A stretch of 10,172 nt of DNA from Candidatus Iainarchaeum sp. Lineage in GTDB: Archaea > Iainarchaeota > Iainarchaeia > Iainarchaeales > 0-14-0-20-30-16. The stretch lies in assembly GCA_903916665.1 (NCBI GenBank), contig CAIWXP010000065.1, forward strand, positions 1-10,172, written 5' to 3'. Within the stretch, counting starts at the first letter, position 1, and each line of letters begins with the position of its first letter. Positions 4,920 to 10,076 of the stretch are shown piece by piece. The position numbers and the translations under genes are program-made. Under the pieces are notes generated by a model, which ran no database searches, was not told the DNA's origin, and worked only from the letters and a program-made list of their open reading frames with translations.

Positions 4920-4924
4920 GTGAT
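4920..4924 (+). promoter_or_regulatory. Shine-Dalgarno-like GTGAT for the MFS gene
   Basis: GTGAT lies 3 nt upstream of the ATG at 4928. It is complementary to the conserved 16S rRNA 3' end (..GAUCACCUCC). The same motif recurs before most non-first genes in the window. Confidence 0.45.
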
Positions 4925-4927
4925 AAA

Positions 4928-6109
4928 ATGAACGAATATAAATCAAATATTTGGAAAATGTATTTTTTCAATTTTTTAACTAGTCTATCTTTTTTTGGTG
5001 CTTTAATTGTTCCTTTTTTTACAACTTGGGGGCATTTAAATTTTACACAAATATTATTTTTACAATCTTGGTTTTCAATTTGGATTTTTATTTTAGAAGT
5101 TCCAACAGGAACCATTGCAGATTATTTTGGAAGAAAATATTCTGTTGCATTGGGGGCATTTGTTGTTGGAATTGGTGCAATTATTTACTCAATAACACCT
5201 AATTTTTATTTGTTTTTATTTGGTGAATTTCTATGGGCTTTAGGTGCTGCTTTAATGTCTGGAGCCGATGATGCTTTTATCTATGATTCTCTAAAGAAAA
5301 ATAAAGAAGAGAAAAAATCTAAAAAAATAATTTCAAGATATGAAACGTTTGCTTTGATAGGTGCGTTAGTTGCTGCATTGGTAAGTGGATTTATTGCAAC
5401 ATTTTTCGGAATACAATATACAATGATGTTTACTGCAATTCCTATGTTTTTAGGATTTATTGTGGCCTTTACATTAAAAGAGCCAAAAATAAAAATAAAA
5501 AAAGAATCAAAAAGATATTGGAAAATTTTTAAAACAGGTGTTAAATATTTATATGGTCACAAACCATTATGGTTTTTAATTTTAGATTCTGTTGTTATTG
5601 GCATATTATTTTATTATATTATTTGGGCCTATCAACCACTATTGCAAAACGCAGGAGTTAGCGTTGCGTTTTTTGGAATAATTCAAGCACTATTTTTTTG
5701 TAGTGAAATATTCTTTGTTAATATTTATTCAAAATTAGAAGCATTGGTAAAATCAAAAAGATTATTATTTTTTATAATTCCATTATTAGTAAGTGTTTTT
5801 TATATTGCAATTGCTTTTTTTAGATCAGTTTGGTTGATATTATTATTTGTATTTGTTGCAGGTGGCTTAGCCTATGCAAAAAGAACAATATTAAGAAGTT
5901 ATATGAATAAACACATTAAAGACTCAAGTACAAGAGCAACTGTTCTATCTTCAGTATCAATGATAAATAGATTTAGTTTGGCAATATTAAGTCCATTTGT
6001 AGGTATGTTAATGGATTGGTCACTAACCTATACATTAGTTTCAATAGGTATATTTGGATTAGTATTTACAATCTTTTCTAAAGTTAAAGAAGAACATTTA
6101 ATTGATTAA
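4928..6109 (+). CDS. Major facilitator superfamily transporter
   Basis: The 393-aa protein is hydrophobic throughout, with about 10-12 predicted helices. The loop 2-3 motif is MFS-like (GTIADYFGRKYSV, cf. G-x-x-x-D-R-x-G-R-R/K), and there is a central charged loop (KKNKEEKKSKK). The substrate is not inferable. Confidence 0.8.
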   Translation: MNEYKSNIWKMYFFNFLTSLSFFGALIVPFFTTWGHLNFTQILFLQSWFSIWIFILEVPTGTIADYFGRKYSVALGAFVVGIGAIIYSITPNFYLFLFGEFLWALGAALMSGADDAFIYDSLKKNKEEKKSKKIISRYETFALIGALVAALVSGFIATFFGIQYTMMFTAIPMFLGFIVAFTLKEPKIKIKKESKRYWKIFKTGVKYLYGHKPLWFLILDSVVIGILFYYIIWAYQPLLQNAGVSVAFFGIIQALFFCSEIFFVNIYSKLEALVKSKRLLFFIIPLLVSVFYIAIAFFRSVWLILLFVFVAGGLAYAKRTILRSYMNKHIKDSSTRATVLSSVSMINRFSLAILSPFVGMLMDWSLTYTLVSIGIFGLVFTIFSKVKEEHLID

Positions 6110-6160
6110 TTTAATCCAAACATTTATTAACTGTTTTGACCTAATTCTATTGTTATATAA

Positions 6161-6165
6161 GTGAT
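6161..6165 (+). promoter_or_regulatory. Shine-Dalgarno-like GTGAT for the first cassette gene
   Basis: GTGAT lies 5 nt upstream of the ATG at 6171. Confidence 0.45.
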
Positions 6166-6170
6166 AGGTT

Positions 6171-6374
6171 ATGACTGATGGCACAGTTAAAGTAAGAAAT
6201 CTTTCGAAGAGATTTATAGTTGTTGAAGGGGACGATGGTGCAAATTATACTGTTTCTACAAGAAGCACAGTAGGTCCTAAAGCGCAGGTTGGAGATCGAG
6301 TATCATTTGATAATGATCCAGATGAAACTAAAGGCAAGCGTGGAAAGAATATTAGAATTGCGGATTATGCTTAG
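6171..6374 (+). CDS. Small (67 aa) beta-rich protein, cold-shock-domain/OB-like fold with degenerate RNP motifs
   Basis: MTDGTVKVRNLSKRFIVVEGDDGANYTVS...VGDRVSFDNDPDETKGKRGKNIRI lines up by eye with E. coli CspA: [28 protein letters not shown]...[21 protein letters not shown]. The K-x-F-x(6)-DDG spacing is identical and G-x-[KR]-VSF is shared. The aromatic RNP1/RNP2 residues (W, F, F, H, F) are mostly replaced by aliphatic or polar ones. The gene has an SD upstream and roughly 40% G+C, against about 20% in the neighbouring MFS gene. Confidence 0.55.
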   Translation: MTDGTVKVRNLSKRFIVVEGDDGANYTVSTRSTVGPKAQVGDRVSFDNDPDETKGKRGKNIRIADYA

Positions 6375-6379
6375 GTGAT
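6374..6379 (+). promoter_or_regulatory. Shine-Dalgarno GGTGAT overlapping the upstream TAG stop
   Basis: GGTGAT lies 4 nt upstream of the ATG at 6384, and its first G is the last base of the TAG stop (6372-6374). This arrangement suggests translational coupling of cassette genes 1 and 2. Confidence 0.5.
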
Positions 6380-6383
6380 TTTT

Positions 6384-7100
6384 ATGCCAGAGAGACCAAT
6401 TTTAAGAAGAGCAGGAAAAATAGCAACAGGTATTGCATTAGGTAGCGTAGTATTAGGTTTGCATAGGGATGTTAATCCTGAACATATGCAAGCAAGAGAA
6501 GAACGAAGAATTGAAGAACGCGCATTTACATCTCCAAGTGAAATGTTAAAAAATCCTGAATTTAGAGCAGAATTAAAAGAATTAAATGATGGTTCAACAT
6601 CATTATTAAGAAAATATGAAAAAAAAGAATTAACTGCTAAAGATGTTAAAAATTTATTTTCGCAAATCGATGCAGATATTAATTATTTTAAATTAGAAGA
6701 TCCTCAATTTATGAGGGCGATGATTTTTTCTCCTGGTGACATGTATGATGATTTTAAAGCATTGGGAAAAAGAATAATTGATTTATTTGAAACTACTGGA
6801 AAAAGAGCATGGAATGATCCTCAAACTGTTGCTTTGGCAGAATTAATTGTTTTGGCAACATATATACATATGGCAAGAAATATTAGACGTAGAGGATACC
6901 AATATTGGCAAGGTGTAAAAAGTACTGATCCGTTTGCATTTAGTAATTATACTGATGTTTCAAAAAGTCAAACTGGAGAAATTGCATTCATGTTATTTTT
7001 TGCAGCAAATTATCCTAATTTAGCTGTGCCTATTGCATTATTTGGGCCCACAGTTAGATATTATTTAGCAAAAGGAATACCACGTAGAGTTAAGCGTTGA
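6384..7100 (+). CDS. Hypothetical membrane-anchored protein (orphan), Arg-rich
   Basis: The ORF track starts this gene at GTG 6375. I prefer the ATG at 6384 because the GGTGAT motif sits 4 nt upstream of it. The N-terminus (RRAGKIATGIALGSVVLGL) looks like a signal anchor or TM helix. A charged helical middle follows, and the C-terminal part has hydrophobic stretches (TVALAELIVLATYIHMA and GEIAFMLFFAANYPNLAVPIALFGP). I recognise no family motif. Confidence 0.6.
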   Translation: MPERPILRRAGKIATGIALGSVVLGLHRDVNPEHMQAREERRIEERAFTSPSEMLKNPEFRAELKELNDGSTSLLRKYEKKELTAKDVKNLFSQIDADINYFKLEDPQFMRAMIFSPGDMYDDFKALGKRIIDLFETTGKRAWNDPQTVALAELIVLATYIHMARNIRRRGYQYWQGVKSTDPFAFSNYTDVSKSQTGEIAFMLFFAANYPNLAVPIALFGPTVRYYLAKGIPRRVKR

Positions 7101-7105
7101 TTTAA

Positions 7106-7639
7106 ATGTCTGAATTAAAACGTTCGCCATTAAGAAAATTAGAAGAAAGATTTGGTAGAATAAAATCAGAAGATCAAGCGCAACAAATTGCTGATGTTGC
7201 AAGAACAGAATTAGTTAGACGAAAAAAAGAATTATTATTTGAATTTAGAAAACGAATTAATGTTGAACAAAAAGGTTTAAGTGTAACTATTACAATTCCT
7301 GATTTAAATGGAAATTATTTTGCAATATTAAAAGGACGATTAATGCAAGATGGATTTTTTCATATAGTTTTAGTTTCTGTTGGTGAATTAGAAGGCCAGG
7401 GTGATCAATCAAATTTTAAATATAGAGATCCATTACGAAAATTAGGCGTAGATAAATTATTAATGGATTATACAATAAAATGGGCAAGAATGAATGGTCA
7501 CAACGGAATAACATTAGAATGTAAATATAATTTAATGGACCATTATAAAAAATTTGGATTTGTTGAAGATCATATTCCTCAAAGTGATTATTATGAAAGT
7601 TTGGGCGAGTGGCGAACAATGACATTAAATTTTAATTAA
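7106..7639 (+). CDS. GNAT-fold N-acetyltransferase (short core) with a charged helical N-terminal extension of about 55 aa
   Basis: The C-terminal part, YRDPLRKLGVDKLLMDYTIKWARMNGHNGITLECKYNLMDHYKKFGFVED, matches GNAT motif A and B logic: R-x-x-G-x-[G/A] (here RKLGVD, aa 111-116, nt 7436-7453), then a helix, then a strand, then ...Y.K.GF. The N-terminal 55 aa (SELKRSPLRKLEERFGRIKSEDQAQQIADVARTELVRRKKELLFEFRKR) have no GNAT counterpart. The start is 5 nt after the upstream TGA. Confidence 0.62.
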   Translation: MSELKRSPLRKLEERFGRIKSEDQAQQIADVARTELVRRKKELLFEFRKRINVEQKGLSVTITIPDLNGNYFAILKGRLMQDGFFHIVLVSVGELEGQGDQSNFKYRDPLRKLGVDKLLMDYTIKWARMNGHNGITLECKYNLMDHYKKFGFVEDHIPQSDYYESLGEWRTMTLNFN

Positions 7640-8199
7640 TCTTCTTCAACTTCTAAATCTATTTCTTTTGATAGTTGATTTTTTAATACTCTTCCCTTTG
7701 GTACTTGACTTTTTATTGCACCATTATTTATTATTCCAACACCATAAACTTCTTTATTGTATTTTAAAATTAAGTAATTTTTAAATTCATTGGCTGCATT
7801 TATTTTTATTTCAGATCCGCGAGTAAATTCATCCAATTGTTCTTTAGTCATTTCATAGTAATTTTTTGTTATTTTATCATTTAAAAATACTGCAAAGTTA
7901 GTTGTCATTTTAGGAACTTCAAAGGCATTTCTCAGCGCTCTTAAACCCAGAGAATTAATATTTAAATTTTTTCCAATGCCAATCATACTTTTTGCTGCTT
8001 TATTTGTTATCCAAATATCTTTTCCTCTTTTTAATAATATTAATGATTCTAAATAATCCAAAGCTATGCCGTAGGTTTCATTCAAATAGATCTGTAATTT
8101 TTTTGTTTCTATTTTTCCTAATTCTTCTGGATCGGGGTCTATTCGTCTATCTTCATCTTGCAAACGAAAAAACCTTCGATGTTTGTTTTTTGTGGCCAT
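7636..8199 (-). CDS. Nip7-like / PUA-domain RNA-binding protein
   Basis: The 187-aa ORF has an architecture and C-terminal segment (NYLILKYNKEVYGVGIINNGAIKSQVPKGRVLKNQ) that resemble the archaeal Nip7 PUA domain (..VVVLN..G.iIGIG.....ikN..d.G..L). A GTGAT motif at 8206-8210 lies 6 nt upstream of the ATG at 8199. The first 61 nt overlap the methyltransferase gene in the -1 frame. The ORF sits downstream of a Nop2/Sun-type methyltransferase. Confidence 0.6.
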   Translation of the reverse strand: MATKNKHRRFFRLQDEDRRIDPDPEELGKIETKKLQIYLNETYGIALDYLESLILLKRGKDIWITNKAAKSMIGIGKNLNINSLGLRALRNAFEVPKMTTNFAVFLNDKITKNYYEMTKEQLDEFTRGSEIKINAANEFKNYLILKYNKEVYGVGIINNGAIKSQVPKGRVLKNQLSKEIDLEVEED

Positions 8200-9071
8200 A
8201 GTTTTATCACTTTTTTAACTTCTTTATTATATTCTTTTCCATCAAATTCTGTTCTTCCTTGTGATGTTTCTAATCCTTCAAAAGAAACTTTTTCCAATGA
8301 AATATTATCATATTTATTTAATGCATAGTCAATTATTGCCTCATCTTCTTCTGGAGATAAAGTACAGGTAGAATAAATAATTGTTCCACCTTTTTTTGTG
8401 CAGGCAATTGCACTATCTAATAGTTGTTTTTGTAATCTTGAATTTTCAATAACTTTGTTTTGAGACCAAACATATCTTGCTTTAATATCTTTTTGAAACG
8501 TGCCTTCTCCAGAACAAGGAGCATCCAATAAAACTTTATCAAACATTCCTGTGTAATGAGAAAATTTTCTACCATCATTTCTTGTTATACAACAATTAAT
8601 ACAACCAGATCTATCCAAATTATCTTGCAAAGGACTAATTCTTTGTATGCTGGGTTCATTGGCAACAATAATTCCTGTATTTTTCATGTGCATACACATT
8701 TGTGTAGTTTTTGATCCTGGTGCTGCAGCCATATCTAAAATATATTCTCCTTCCTTAGGATCTAAAGCAATAACAGGTAGCATTGATGATGCTTCTTGAA
8801 CATATATTTTCCCAAGGTAATGGTCATAGGTATTTCCTATGGCTTGTTTTTTGGCAGTTTTAATAAAATATCCATATTTATACCAAGGCATTTTATCAAC
8901 AACATATTCATAGGACTCTAAAGATTCAACCACTTCTTTAGTAGTACCTCTTAAAGTATTTACTCTTATACTTTTTCTCAAAGGCGTGTCTAAAGCAGTT
9001 TTTAACTTTTCAAGCTCGGCTTCAGTTAACATTTTTGCCATTTTATTTATGAATGCTTCAGGAAAGAACAT
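8139..9071 (-). CDS. NOL1/NOP2/Sun-family RNA (cytosine-C5)-methyltransferase (archaeal Nop2/Trm4-like)
   Basis: The SAM motif I is DMAAAPGSKT (aa 113-122). Motif IV is DAPCSGEG with catalytic Cys186, and motif VI is YSTCTLSPEEDE with Cys236. IYVQEASSMLP and the C-terminal EGFFVCKMK strand are also typical of the family. A GTGAT motif at 9075-9079 lies 3 nt upstream of the ATG. Confidence 0.88.
   Translation of the reverse strand: MFFPEAFINKMAKMLTEAELEKLKTALDTPLRKSIRVNTLRGTTKEVVESLESYEYVVDKMPWYKYGYFIKTAKKQAIGNTYDHYLGKIYVQEASSMLPVIALDPKEGEYILDMAAAPGSKTTQMCMHMKNTGIIVANEPSIQRISPLQDNLDRSGCINCCITRNDGRKFSHYTGMFDKVLLDAPCSGEGTFQKDIKARYVWSQNKVIENSRLQKQLLDSAIACTKKGGTIIYSTCTLSPEEDEAIIDYALNKYDNISLEKVSFEGLETSQGRTEFDGKEYNKEVKKVIKLWPQKTNIEGFFVCKMKIDE
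8166..8172 (-). other. Canonical -1 frameshift-type slippery heptamer U UUU UUC inside the 61-nt gene overlap
   Basis: The plus strand reads GAAAAAA at 8166-8172, so the mRNA reads GGU UUU UUC in the methyltransferase frame (I checked codon phase against the stop at 8139-8141). A -1 slip would enter the frame of the downstream PUA ORF. No function is demonstrated, and the run is also a homopolymer prone to indel error. Confidence 0.3.
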
Positions 9072-9175: not shown

Positions 9176-9207
9176 TCCAGTTGCCTTTGTCTTTTTTAAA
9201 AAGCTTT

Positions 9208-9281
9208 GGCCCCTTAGCTCAGTCTGGTAGAGCATCAGGCTTTTAACCTGAGTGTCGTGGGTTCGAATCCCCCAGGGGTCA
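9208..9281 (+). tRNA. tRNA-Lys (anticodon UUU), no encoded CCA
   Basis: I folded the cloverleaf by hand. The acceptor stem is GGCCCCT/AGGGGTC (with a G2-U71 wobble). The D arm is GCTC-AGTCTGGTA-GAGC. The anticodon arm is TCAGG-CTTTTAA-CCTGA, with the anticodon TTT at 9242-9244. The variable loop is GTGTC. The T arm is GTGGG-TTCGAAT-CCCCC, with one U50-C64 mismatch. The discriminator is A at 9281. Total length is 74 nt. Confidence 0.9.
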
Positions 9282-9284
9282 TAG

Positions 9285-9413: not shown

Positions 9414-10076
9414 ATGCTCTTTATTAATATTATGACTAAATCTAATTATTTTTGCAAATCTACAGAAGAAGACTTTTCAACAAAAACTTTAAAAGGAAAA
9501 AATAAAGTTACTTTTCAAACCATAGAGGACATGGTTAAAACTAAAACAATTAAACCAAATACAAAAAGTTTTGGAAAACAAATGCGGTTATCTTGCACTT
9601 TTTTGAATAAAAATTATTTGAAAACCTATAGACCACAAGGAATAATTTTTAAGACAAATCAAAAACCTCATGAAGTATATCCTTTTGATTTAGTTTTATT
9701 AAGTAATGCAAAAAAAATAATAGTTCATTATTATAGAATAAAAAATAATTTACATCTTTATTATAATCATCATTTGATTCCTGGTTTTGAAAAATTCGTA
9801 TTTAAAGATTTCGAATCAATGTTAAAAACAATTTCTTCTCCCAAAGATGGTTGGAAAAAAGTAAATGCATTTAGAAAGAAAAATGGATTTGGTGTTTTAC
9901 AAAAACAAAAATATAGATTAGTAGAATATAATGAAATAGTATTTCAGAAACCCGTTAAAATAATTCCCATTGCTATTTTTGGCTATAGAAAAGAATCAAA
10001 GGAATTGGCAAAAAAACTAGGGCTAAAACACTATATTTCTGCAAAAGCATTTTATGAAACAATAAGGAATGTTTAA
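9414..10076 (+). CDS. Hypothetical protein (orphan, Lys-rich, host-like composition)
   Basis: The ORF is 220 aa and I recognise no motif in it. The in-frame ATG at 9432 (MTKSNYF...) may be the true start, because a TATA-like TTTTATATTT (9398-9407) lies about 27-29 nt upstream of it and no SD is present, which fits a leaderless pattern. Confidence 0.55.
   Translation: MLFINIMTKSNYFCKSTEEDFSTKTLKGKNKVTFQTIEDMVKTKTIKPNTKSFGKQMRLSCTFLNKNYLKTYRPQGIIFKTNQKPHEVYPFDLVLLSNAKKIIVHYYRIKNNLHLYYNHHLIPGFEKFVFKDFESMLKTISSPKDGWKKVNAFRKKNGFGVLQKQKYRLVEYNEIVFQKPVKIIPIAIFGYRKESKELAKKLGLKHYISAKAFYETIRNV

What the first reader, a model, noticed from the sequence alone, without database searches (positions are those of the whole stretch)
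6110..7639. Compositionally distinct three-gene cassette (CSD-like mini-protein + membrane-anchored orphan + short GNAT) with no recognisable pathway
Seen in the sequence: three same-strand ORFs are separated by only 9 nt (TAG 6372-6374 to ATG 6384) and 5 nt (TGA 7098-7100 to ATG 7106), with SD motifs before genes 1 and 2, so they almost certainly form one operon. My hand counts of G+C per 60-nt line are 23/60 (6181-6240), 26/60 (6241-6300), 24/60 (6421-6480) and 20/60 (7381-7440). The adjacent MFS gene gives 12/60 (5701-5760). The middle of gene 2 is host-like (9/60 at 6601-6660). The products are Arg-rich: by hand count the 241-aa protein has about 21 R against 16 K, with runs such as REERRIEER, RNIRRRG and PRRVKR. 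The flanking proteins are strongly Lys-biased. The neighbours are ordinary housekeeping or transport genes. Inference: this looks like a laterally acquired accessory module. Combining a small nucleic-acid-binding-type beta-barrel, a membrane anchor and an acetyltransferase does not correspond to any operon I know. It is not the RHH/DUF1778-GNAT toxin-antitoxin layout, and it is not a RimI-type housekeeping context. Plausible roles are an acetyltransferase-based conflict or toxin-immunity module, or an acetylation-controlled nucleic-acid-binding protein analogous to the Pat/Alba logic. Both are speculation.
Basis: partly seen in the sequence, partly recalled or inferred. Interest (0 to 1): 0.72.

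Follow-up and report, generated by a model that had tools for sequence, protein, structure and literature searches.

The report
Native archaeal operon, not imported cassette
Three tightly packed genes in an AT-rich archaeal contig are real and have an odd base composition, but they are native genes: a conserved cold-shock-like core gene followed by two fast-evolving optional genes (a rare membrane protein and a divergent acetyltransferase), not a laterally acquired three-part system.

Summary
The region is the strongest tetranucleotide outlier in the window. That anomaly comes from the amino-acid sequences, not from foreign DNA. GC3 and synonymous codon usage match the host, and re-encoding the three proteins with host codons reproduces the anomaly.

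- **g1 (67 aa):** a divergent cold-shock-domain/OB-fold protein. It is present in every relative, has its own conserved archaeal promoter, and is under strong purifying selection.
- **g3 (177 aa):** a GNAT acetyltransferase with a conserved ~50-aa N-terminal helical extension. The assignment holds at family level; the window copy alone is weak.
- **g2 (238 aa):** belongs to a tiny family, 7 clusters among 1.84 billion representatives. It has no Pfam or PDB relative and has borderline hydrophobic segments.

Across about ten related lineages the order g1→g2→g3→(convergent PUA/RsmF) is fixed, but g2 and g3 come and go independently. The observed combinations are g1 alone, g1+g2, g1+g3, all three, and 1+2+2.

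Lateral acquisition and an obligate trio are therefore not supported. "Accessory" fits g2 and g3 only. Function remains inferred. Interest is modest.

The parts
6116..6130 (+). BRE/TATA-like promoter element (CCAAACA TTTATTAA), about 45 nt upstream of the g1 start
   Evidence: The core 'CAAAnnTTTATTAA' is conserved upstream of g1 in window, L014, L015, L033, L016 and L020, with a variant in L021. Promoter function is inferred from the archaeal consensus, not shown.
6161..6169 (+). SD-like GTGATAGGT before g1
   Evidence: Sequence. GTGAT is conserved in close relatives.
6171..6374 (+). g1: 67-aa basic (pI 9.2) divergent cold-shock-domain/OB-fold protein; the core gene of the clade
   Evidence: The family profile hits cold-shock proteins (9 of the 10 best PDB matches), best E=1.6e-3 over the full length. 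The AF2 model has five strands and pLDDT 70-83 over residues 1-48. Foldseek top hits are CSPs, TM 0.59-0.74. The gene is present in all related loci. dN/dS is 0.03.
6373..6379 (+). AGGTGAT SD for g2, overlapping the g1 stop codon
   Evidence: Sequence. In relatives the annotated g2 start (an upstream ATG) overlaps g1 by 8 nt; the conserved MP start lies 5-20 nt after the g1 stop.
6384..7100 (+). g2: 238-aa basic protein (241 aa from GTG 6375) of a very small uncharacterised family. It has a conserved Gly-rich N-terminal hydrophobic motif and two further hydrophobic segments.
   Evidence: Only 7 hits at E<=1e-3 among 1.84 billion representatives. No Pfam, NCBIfam, PADLOC, PHROG or PDB relative. 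Homologues of 41-51%, 30% and 23% identity follow g1 in L014, L015, L033, L010 and L034.
6420..6461 (+). g2 residues 13-26 (IATGIALGSVVLGL): Gly-zipper-like hydrophobic segment after the RRAGK motif
   Evidence: This is the most conserved stretch of the family. Kyte-Doolittle 19-residue peak is 1.22, borderline for a TM helix.
6828..6884 (+). g2 residues 149-167 (VALAELIVLATYIHMARNI): conserved amphipathic or borderline TM helix, followed by RNIRRRG
   Evidence: KD peak is 1.35 in the window protein and 1.4-1.9 in relatives. The LAELIxLAxYLQ motif is conserved.
6987..7043 (+). g2 residues 202-220 (FMLFFAANYPNLAVPIALF): the most hydrophobic segment and a probable TM helix
   Evidence: KD peak is 1.52 in the window protein and up to 2.16 in L010.
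7106..7639 (+). g3: 177-aa basic GNAT-fold acetyltransferase, the most divergent member of its small family
   Evidence: On its own it matches only Acetyltransf_10 at E=0.11, Sat3 at 0.005 and RimI at 0.09. The family profile hits Ard1 4pv6 at 1.1e-8, Naa50 at 3.6e-7 and GNA1 at 5e-7. Five of six family members hit Pfam GNAT models, best 2.8e-7. Homologues of 29-35% identity lie before the PUA gene in L010 (two copies), L018, L020, L021 and L032.
7106..7270 (+). g3 N-terminal ~55-aa basic helical extension (SPLRKxExxFGxIKSxxxAQxIxDxAxxELxRRKKELL)
   Evidence: It is as conserved as the catalytic core in five family members. It has no PDB relative. It is predicted helical, but the model has low confidence.
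7436..7453 (+). g3 motif A, the acetyl-CoA pyrophosphate loop: R111-K-L-G114-V-D116
   Evidence: It aligns to Ard1 RRMGVG. Paralogues have RGLGIG, RNLGIS, GSLGLS and SKIGLG. Asp at the last position is atypical.
7636..8199 (-). Convergent neighbour: PUA-domain protein (the C-terminal part of a split RsmF-type m5C methyltransferase). Its stop overlaps the g3 stop by 4 nt. It marks the fixed right-hand boundary of the variable slot.
   Evidence: NCBIfam RsmF match at E=6e-10 over the C-terminal part of the model. The gene is syntenic in all relatives.

Best explanation
The region is a native, vertically inherited transcription unit of a small clade of AT-rich (22-29% GC) DPANN-type archaea.

**g1.** Its first gene, g1, is a core gene with its own conserved promoter. 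It encodes a strongly constrained, basic, 67-aa cold-shock-domain/OB-fold protein. Most of the canonical aromatic RNP residues are lost, and an invariant DPDE-x-KGKRGKN loop has been acquired. Its most likely role is a small nucleic-acid (RNA or ssDNA) binder or chaperone. This is inferred from the fold only.

**The slot.** The space between g1 and the convergent PUA/RsmF gene holds zero to four optional, fast-evolving genes that ride on the g1 promoter.

**g3.** g3 is ancestral to the clade. It is an acetyl-CoA-dependent N-acetyltransferase of the GNAT fold. Its conserved basic N-terminal helix probably docks it to its substrate or partner.

**g2.** g2 was inserted later between g1 and g3. 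It is a membrane-associated protein of an otherwise undescribed family.

**Relationship between the genes.** g2 and g3 are co-transcribed when both are present. They occur without each other, so they do not form an obligate three-part machine with g1.

**Composition.** The compositional anomaly is a by-product of Arg/Gly/Ala/Asp-rich protein sequences encoded with host codons.

**Shown:** gene structure, homology and fold assignments, phyletic pattern, and native codon usage. **Inferred:** promoter activity, nucleic-acid binding by g1, catalytic activity and target of g3, and membrane topology of g2.
For: - **Composition:** GC3 and a leave-one-out synonymous-codon test are host-like. The recoding control reproduces the anomaly. 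g1 orthologues are GC-elevated through GC1 and GC2 in six lineages.
- **g1 identity:** CSD profile, AF2 model, Foldseek, and a Pfam CSD match of the L020 orthologue at E=0.044 over the full length.
- **g1 is core:** present in every related locus. dN/dS is 0.03. The upstream BRE/TATA-like element is conserved.
- **g3 is a GNAT:**
- **g2 family is tiny and unannotated:**
- **Phyletic pattern:**
  - window: g1-g2-g3
  - L032: (contig cut)-g2-g3-PUA
  - L010, L011, L018: g1-g2a-g2b-g3a-g3b
  - L014, L033: g1-g2-PUA, without g3
  - L020: g1-g3-PUA, without g2
  - L021: g1 beside the helicase and g3 beside PUA, with about 7 kb between them
  - L009, L016: g1 only
- **Evolutionary order:** in the helicase NJ tree, the g3-bearing, g2-less lineages are basal.
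- **Archaeal identity:** EF-1beta, Csl4, Rpo11, aIF5A, S19e and L31e lie on syntenic contigs. The related MAG titles read 'uncultured archaeon'.
Against: - No experiment or transcript data was available.
- The window g3 alone is only a marginal GNAT match, and its motif A ends in Asp. It could be catalytically impaired.
- The single-sequence AF2 model of g3 failed (pLDDT 50), and g2 could not be modelled.
- g1 lacks most nucleic-acid-contacting aromatics, so binding is not assured.
- g2 and g3 are both duplicated in the L010 lineage. This hints at a functional link that the 'independent passengers' view does not explain.
- Only about 10 lineages were seen, many on short contigs. Absence of g2 or g3 elsewhere in those genomes could not be checked.
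- Codon statistics rest on one 10-kb contig, not a genome.
Confidence: 0.62

Rival explanations
1. g2 and g3 are a functional pair: a membrane-associated acetyltransferase system. The g3 N-terminal helix docks onto g2, and the enzyme modifies a membrane-proximal or envelope substrate. g1 merely supplies the promoter.
For: g2 and g3 are adjacent in a fixed order in three independent lineages: window, L032 and the L010 group. Both genes are duplicated in the same lineage, giving g2a-g2b-g3a-g3b. Both evolve fast relative to their neighbours: g2 is 45% and g3 29-35% identical where the helicase is 84% and 72-76% identical. Both are basic, and the g3 extension is conserved without a known role.
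Against: g2 occurs without g3 in L014 and L033, and g3 without g2 in L020 and L021. Adjacency is forced by the layout, because g2 always follows g1 and g3 always precedes PUA. The counts of both/g2 only/g3 only/neither are about 3/2/2/2, which shows no association. A g2-like gene stands alone in a different context in L030. The g2a-g2b-g3a-g3b order is not what a segmental duplication of a pair would produce.
Confidence: 0.18
2. It is an acetyltransferase-based conflict module of the toxin-antitoxin or toxin-immunity type. g3 would be a GNAT toxin, for example acetylating aminoacyl-tRNA. g1 or g2 would neutralise it.
For: In L020 a small upstream gene (g1, 63 aa) overlaps a ~170-aa GNAT (g3), which superficially resembles a type II GNAT TA pair. 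g3 is patchily present and fast-evolving: g3a has dN/dS 0.52.
Against: g1 has a CSD fold, not RHH/DUF1778. It is universally present with or without g3 and under strong purifying selection. g3 exists without g2 (L020, L021) and apart from g1 (L021). The locus is fixed and syntenic, not mobile. There are no PADLOC hits. No TacT, AtaT or KacT chains appear among the 60 best PDB matches of the family profile. None of the three families was found on viral contigs.
Confidence: 0.05
3. It is a recently laterally acquired genomic islet.
For: The region has the highest GC and tetranucleotide deviation in the window and is Arg-rich. g2 and g3 are absent from some relatives. Distant g2 relatives exist in somewhat higher-GC organisms: L030 at 32.5% and L031 at 35%.
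Against: Codon usage is host-like, and the recoding control explains the anomaly. Orthologues occupy the same site in relatives with divergence proportionate to or greater than their neighbours. g3 is present in basal lineages. There are no repeats, integrase or adjacent tRNA at the borders. g3 GC equals the window mean.
Confidence: 0.05
4. It is a Pat/Alba-like regulatory pair: g3 acetylates invariant lysines of g1 (K7, K13, K56, K59) to tune its nucleic-acid binding.
For: The two genes are co-transcribed. g1 has invariant lysines in a conserved KGKRGKN loop. The best PDB matches of g3 are protein N-acetyltransferases, Ard1 and Naa50.
Against: g1 functions without g3 in at least four lineages, and the two genes are separated in L021. 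The PDB similarity covers only the generic acetyl-CoA-binding motifs A and B, so it does not indicate substrate.
Confidence: 0.07

Closest known systems
Bacterial cold-shock proteins (CspA/CspB; Pfam CSD PF00313)
   Same: g1 has the same length (about 67 aa) and the same five-strand OB-type barrel. It aligns over its full length at 25-28% identity, including the GTVK-x-x-N start, K13, F15 and the DDG turn.
   Different: It falls below the Pfam threshold (no hit for the window protein; 14 bits against a cut-off of 27 for the L020 orthologue). RNP1 KGFGFI is replaced by KRFIVV and RNP2 VFVHF by YTVST, so most base-stacking aromatics are gone. It has an added invariant DPDE-x-KGKRGKN loop. The host is archaeal. 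CSPs have been reported as expressed in Woesearchaeota MAGs (PMC11606122), so a CSD in DPANN archaea is not new in itself.
GNAT N-acetyltransferases, closest solved: archaeal Ard1/Naa10 (4pv6), Naa50, GNA1
   Same: Motif A (RxxGxG/A-like) and motif B (FYxKFGF) align with family-profile E-values of 1e-8 to 5e-7.
   Different: Only the C-terminal half (profile positions about 83-165) aligns. The N-terminal ~55 aa is a family-specific basic helix with no known relative. The window copy has Asp at the last motif A position. The gene is not universally present in the clade, unlike a housekeeping Ard1 or RimI.
GNAT-RHH type II toxin-antitoxin systems (TacAT, AtaRT, KacAT)
   Same: A small upstream gene is followed by a ~170-aa GNAT. 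In L020 the two overlap.
   Different: There is no RHH/DUF1778 partner. The upstream gene is a conserved core CSD-like protein. The locus is fixed and vertically inherited. There is no specific similarity to TA GNAT toxins.
Pat/Alba acetylation control of an archaeal nucleic-acid-binding protein
   Same: The concept is shared: a GNAT encoded alongside a small basic nucleic-acid-binding-type protein that has conserved lysines.
   Different: There is no homology to Pat or Alba. g1 is retained where g3 is absent. No evidence of acetylation exists.

Membership tests
Cold-shock domain (CSD, PF00313): g1 | Five-stranded OB-type beta-barrel of about 65-70 residues | tested here: met
   The AF2 model built with a 7-sequence alignment has strands at 2-10, 15-20, 25-29, 43-46 and 61-63, with pLDDT 70-83 over residues 1-48 and below 50 in the 49-67 loop and tail. 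Foldseek top hits are CSPs, TM 0.59-0.74, probability 1.0.
Cold-shock domain (CSD, PF00313): g1 | Significant sequence match to the family model | tested here: inconclusive
   The window g1 has no Pfam hit at E<=1. The L020 orthologue matches CSD at E=0.044, 14.1 bits against a cut-off of 27. The family profile against PDB gives cold-shock proteins as 9 of the 10 best matches, best E=1.6e-3.
Cold-shock domain (CSD, PF00313): g1 | RNP1 (K-G-F-G-F-I) and RNP2 (V-F-V-H-F) aromatic nucleic-acid-binding motifs | tested here: not met
   From the alignment and the family alignment: W8 is replaced by V/S, F17 by V, H29 by S, and F30 by T/S. Only F15 (F/Y) and one aromatic at position 26/27 are kept.
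Cold-shock domain (CSD, PF00313): g1 | Binds single-stranded RNA or DNA | not testable with these tools
   Needs EMSA or fluorescence titration.
GNAT acetyltransferase superfamily: g3 | Significant match to GNAT profiles | tested here: met
   Met at family level: the A5 profile matches Ard1 at 1.1e-8 and 22 GNAT chains at E<=1e-3, and five of six members hit Acetyltransf_1/7/10. The window protein alone is marginal, at E=0.11. It is linked to the family by BLASTP at 1e-20.
GNAT acetyltransferase superfamily: g3 | Motif A Q/R-x-x-G-x-G/A (acetyl-CoA pyrophosphate loop) | tested here: inconclusive
   The window protein has R-K-L-G-V-D, with the Arg and the invariant Gly present and Asp in place of G/A. 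The L010 paralogue has the canonical R-G-L-G-I-G.
GNAT acetyltransferase superfamily: g3 | Motif B / helix alpha-4 (x-F-Y-x-K-x-G-F) | tested here: met
   HYKKFGF aligns to Ard1 FYKKYGF. Y147, K149, G151 and F152 are invariant in the family.
GNAT acetyltransferase superfamily: g3 | Complete mixed alpha/beta GNAT fold, including the N-terminal beta1-alpha1-alpha2 arm | tested here: inconclusive
   The single-sequence AF2 model has pLDDT 50 and its Foldseek matches are meaningless. Profile matches cover only the C-terminal half.
GNAT/RHH type II toxin-antitoxin | Adjacent RHH/DUF1778 antitoxin | tested here: not met
   g1 is CSD-like and g2 has no Pfam match.
GNAT/RHH type II toxin-antitoxin | Strict toxin-antitoxin co-occurrence and mobile, patchy genomic location | tested here: not met
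   g1 occurs without g3 in L009, L016, L014 and L033. g3 lies apart from g1 in L021. The syntenic site is fixed. PADLOC gives no hit.
Laterally acquired genomic island | Atypical synonymous codon usage or GC3 relative to the host | tested here: not met
   GC3 is 0.107-0.206 against 0.12-0.19 in the neighbours. The leave-one-out codon test gives z=+1.8 (g2), +1.8 (g3) and -2.5 (g1, 66 codons; SpoIIM gives -2.1). The recoding control gives 0.349±0.016 against 0.340 observed. The test covers this window only, not the genome.
Laterally acquired genomic island | Absent from the syntenic site of relatives; bordered by repeats, a tRNA or an integrase | tested here: not met
   Orthologues occupy the same site in relatives. 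Only AT-rich chance repeats were found. The single tRNA lies 1.5 kb beyond the PUA and methyltransferase genes.
Housekeeping N-terminal acetyltransferase (Ard1/RimI) | Conserved presence across close relatives and full-length orthology | tested here: not met
   g3 is absent at this locus in L009, L016, L014 and L033. RimI TIGR01575 scores 12.9 bits against a cut-off of 86.4. The Ard1 match is limited to motifs A and B.

The most novel reading that the evidence does not exclude
g1, g2 and g3 form a clade-specific regulatory module. A GNAT is positioned by its N-terminal helix on the g2 membrane protein. It acetylates the invariant lysines of the KGKRGKN loop in an aromatic-depleted cold-shock-domain protein. 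This would switch the protein's nucleic-acid (or membrane) association. It would be a new CSD-based analogue of Pat/Alba control in ultra-small archaea.
Probability: 0.07. Interest if true: 0.6.

Novelty: new variant of a known kind. Interest (0 to 1): 0.3.

Why it matters
The main value is as a corrected annotation and a caution.

- **Method:** in very AT-rich genomes, a local GC or tetranucleotide anomaly can come entirely from amino-acid content. A recoding control separates this from lateral transfer.
- **g1:** it defines a strongly conserved cold-shock-domain variant without the canonical RNP aromatics, present in every related locus found for this DPANN-type clade. That makes it a candidate small nucleic-acid-binding protein worth a binding assay.
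- **g2 and g3:** they are two small, fast-evolving families: a GNAT with a conserved basic N-terminal helix and a near-orphan membrane protein. They occupy a gene-content hotspot between an XPD-like helicase and a split RsmF.

None of this changes current understanding unless a functional link between the three genes is demonstrated.

Tried and rejected
- **Word-indexed homologue searches.** For g3 and g2 these returned only self-hits. This was a sensitivity artefact: homologues of 23-51% identity were later found through g1-anchored contexts and the exhaustive search.
- **P0001, the sole g3 'homologue'.** It is a truncated gene call on a chimeric scaffold. L001 carries 525 bp that are 100% identical to window 7297-7821, fused to unrelated high-GC DNA. 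It was rejected as evidence.
- **AF2 model of g3.** The single-sequence model had pLDDT 50 and its fold search gave meaningless hits. It was discarded.
- **g2 family and g3 N-terminal extension.** Neither has a PDB relative. No PHROG or PADLOC signal was found.
- **g1 scan of GTDB genomes.** This found nothing. The helicase-anchored scan recovered two related MAGs.
- **Viral-contig scans.** Scans for all three families were negative. Two alignments were too divergent to scan.
- **afdb50 fold library.** Unavailable.
- **Sigma-70 promoter and terminator scan.** Uninformative for an archaeon, with counts equal to those in shuffled sequence.
- **Sample provenance.** A literature search for the sample name found nothing relevant.
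- **Twin-arginine signal in g2.** Considered because of the RRAGK motif followed by a Gly/Ala-rich hydrophobic region. Rejected because RR is not conserved in the family; KR and RK also occur.


Full report
**1. Observation**

The window is a 10,172-bp contig with 27.5% GC.
- g1: 6171-6374, 67 aa.
- g2: 6384-7100, 238 aa (241 aa from GTG 6375).
- g3: 7106-7639, 177 aa.

The spacers are 9 nt and 5 nt. SD-like motifs precede g1 (GTGATAGGT) and g2 (AGGTGAT). All six G+C hand counts and the R=21/K=16 count are exact.

The region holds the highest 300-nt GC value in the window (0.373). It is also the top tetranucleotide outlier, rank 1 of 36 windows with z about 3.

**2. Why the composition is odd**

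The excess G+C lies only in codon positions 1 and 2. GC3 is 0.206/0.126/0.107, against 0.12-0.19 in the neighbours.

A leave-one-out synonymous-codon likelihood test shows that g2 and g3 fit host usage better than expected (z=+1.8 each). g1 deviates mildly (z=-2.5 on 66 codons), about as much as the SpoIIM gene (-2.1).

The decisive control was to re-encode the three proteins with the synonymous preferences of the other eight genes. This gives a tetranucleotide distance of 0.349±0.016 against 0.340 observed, and a GC of 0.322 against 0.310 observed. The anomaly is therefore fully explained by the amino-acid sequences.

g1 orthologues in five relatives show the same elevation, 3-11 GC points above their loci (7-11 in all but the most AT-rich relative, L021), again through GC1 and GC2.

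The Arg bias of g2 is shared with its closest homologue (L014, R/(R+K) 0.68). It is absent in more AT-rich relatives (0.16-0.34).

No flanking repeats, integrase or adjacent tRNA were found.

**3. What the genes are**

*g1*
- It has no Pfam hit.
- A profile of seven family members hits cold-shock proteins (9 of the 10 best PDB matches) over the full length, best E=1.6e-3.
- The L020 orthologue hits Pfam CSD at E=0.044.
- An AF2 model from the alignment gives the five-strand pattern, with pLDDT 70-83 over residues 1-48.
- Foldseek ranks CSPs first (TM 0.59-0.74, 25-28% identity), followed by IF1, CusF and PAN OB folds.
- The canonical RNP1 and RNP2 aromatics are mostly replaced: W8 by V, F17 by V, H29 by S and F30 by T.
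- A DPDE-x-KGKRGKN loop is invariant.

*g3*
- Alone it is only marginally GNAT-like: Acetyltransf_10 at E=0.11, Sat3 at 0.005.
- Its family (six sequences) matches archaeal Ard1 (4pv6) at 1.1e-8, Naa50 at 3.6e-7 and GNA1 at 5e-7.
- Five of six members hit Pfam GNAT models.
- Motif B is canonical. Motif A in the window copy is RKLGVD, with an atypical Asp.
- A ~55-aa basic N-terminal helix is as conserved as the core and has no known relative.

*g2*
- It has no relative in Pfam, NCBIfam, PADLOC, PHROGs or PDB.
- An exhaustive phmmer search of 1.84 billion representatives found 7 proteins at E<=1e-3.
- It has a conserved Gly-rich N-terminal hydrophobic motif and two further hydrophobic segments with borderline Kyte-Doolittle scores of 1.2-1.5. 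'Membrane-anchored' is plausible but not proven.

**4. Context in relatives**

The organism is an archaeon. Syntenic contigs carry EF-1beta, Csl4, Rpo11, aIF5A, S19e and L31e. Two related GTDB MAGs are titled 'uncultured archaeon'.

The block TldD/PmbA - NDK - SpoIIM - XPD-like helicase ... PUA - RsmF-type methyltransferase is conserved. The genes between the helicase and PUA vary as follows.

| Locus | Gene order between helicase and PUA |
|---|---|
| window | MFS-g1-g2-g3 |
| L033 | MFS-g1-g2 |
| L014, L015, L019 | ASCH-g1-g2 (L014 complete; L015 and L019 end within g2 and g1) |
| L032 | (contig cut)-g2-g3 |
| L010, L011, L018 | (NUDIX)-g1-g2a-g2b-g3a-g3b |
| L034 | g1-g2-(contig cut) |
| L009 | GNAT160-ASCH-LeuRS-g1 |
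| L016 | g1 only |
| L020 | MFS-g1-g3 |
| L021 | g1 after the helicase; g3 stays next to PUA, with about 7 kb between them |

A distant g2-like gene stands alone in another context in L030 and L031.

Three patterns follow:
- g1 is universal.
- The order g1→g2→g3→PUA is fixed.
- g2 and g3 are independently present, absent or duplicated.

On a helicase NJ tree the two basal lineages have g3 but not g2. The parsimonious history is that g1 and g3 are ancestral, g2 was inserted later, and several losses followed.

A BRE/TATA-like element (CAAAnnTTTATTAA) about 45 nt upstream of g1 is conserved across lineages. This is consistent with g1 heading the transcription unit.

Between the close pair L010 and L018, g1 has dN/dS 0.03 and g3a 0.52. 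Between lineages g2 and g3 diverge much faster than their neighbours. For example, g2 is 45% identical where the helicase is 84% identical.

**5. Interpretation**

The best-supported reading (confidence about 0.6) is a native operon with two kinds of gene:
- a core CSD-variant gene, g1;
- two optional, fast-evolving passenger genes, the GNAT g3 and the membrane-associated g2, sitting in a gene-content hotspot.

It is not a laterally acquired, integrated three-component system.

Mechanistic inferences, none of them shown:
- g1 acts as a small basic nucleic-acid binder or chaperone, with an altered binding surface.
- g3 transfers acetyl from acetyl-CoA to an unknown amine. Its N-terminal helix serves as a docking element.
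- g2 is membrane-associated.

Rival readings:
- A g2-g3 functional pair, confidence 0.18. It is supported mainly by co-duplication in one lineage and contradicted by independent occurrence.
- Pat/Alba-like acetylation of g1 by g3, 0.07.
- A GNAT toxin-type conflict module, 0.05.
- Recent lateral transfer, 0.05.

**6. Comparison with known systems**

- g1 works like a cold-shock domain in fold, but it fails the RNP-motif criterion and the Pfam threshold. It is best called a CSD variant. CSPs have already been reported as expressed in DPANN (Woesearchaeota) MAGs (PMC11606122).
- g3 is a GNAT superfamily member. It is neither an Ard1/RimI orthologue nor a TacT/AtaT-type toxin.
- g2 is an undescribed small family.
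- No known operon type matches the trio. The data also do not show that the trio is a system.

**7. Verdict**

Novelty: new variant of a known kind. Interest 0.3.

Noticed in passing
window 8139-8199 (overlap of the methyltransferase gene 8139-9071 and the PUA gene 7636-8199, both on the - strand): The RsmF/NOL1-NOP2-Sun-type m5C methyltransferase is split into a catalytic gene and a PUA-domain gene. The two overlap out of frame by 58-61 nt (always length mod 3 = 1) in five lineages: window, L009, L010, L020 and L021. The conserved overlap could be ordinary gene overlap or a programmed frameshift site.
   Followed up: partly
L001 (ENA scaffold_9154) 4923-5447 = window 7297-7821: This scaffold is chimeric. 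It carries 525 bp that are 100% identical to the window, joined to unrelated high-GC DNA with runs of N. It yields a truncated 127-aa 'homologue' of g3 (P0001), which is an assembly artefact.
   Followed up: yes
L010 3338-5959 versus L018 155-2776: Divergence between these two related contigs is mosaic. g2a and g2b are 100% and 99.7% identical at the nucleotide level and g3b is 99.2% identical. The flanking g1 is only 88.7% identical (dS 0.67) and g3a 91.3%. This indicates either recent recombination or a sweep of the g2 segment, or mixed-strain assembly.
   Followed up: partly
Between the helicase and g1: window 4928-6109; L014 4623-4946; L009 6634-9814; L010 2892-3314: A second variable slot lies upstream of g1. 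Its content differs between lineages: an MFS transporter (window, L020, L033), an ASCH-domain protein (L014, L015, L019, L009), a canonical GNAT plus ASCH plus a class-I tRNA synthetase (L009), a NUDIX hydrolase (L010), or nothing (L016, L021).
   Followed up: partly
window 7636-7639; L014 5913-5916; L009 10201-10204: Whichever gene is last in the slot (g3, g2 or g1) shares a 4-nt palindromic stop-stop overlap (TTAA) with the convergent PUA gene. This reflects extreme compaction of the boundary.
   Followed up: partly
window 9207-9282 and 9414-10076: A tRNA-Lys(UUU) is present. It is followed by a 220-aa Lys-rich ORF with no family match. That ORF is not homologous to the 216-229-aa gene found beyond the methyltransferase in relatives (L009, L010).
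   Followed up: no
The word-indexed protein search reported g2 and g3 as having only self-hits. Homologues of 23-51% identity nevertheless exist in public assemblies searched with the other tools. 'Orphan' calls from that tool alone would have been wrong.
   Followed up: yes
L021 12053-13141: In the most AT-rich relative (22% GC), the gene following g1 is a 362-aa TPR-like protein instead of g2, g3 or PUA. This marks a rearrangement breakpoint directly after g1.
   Followed up: no
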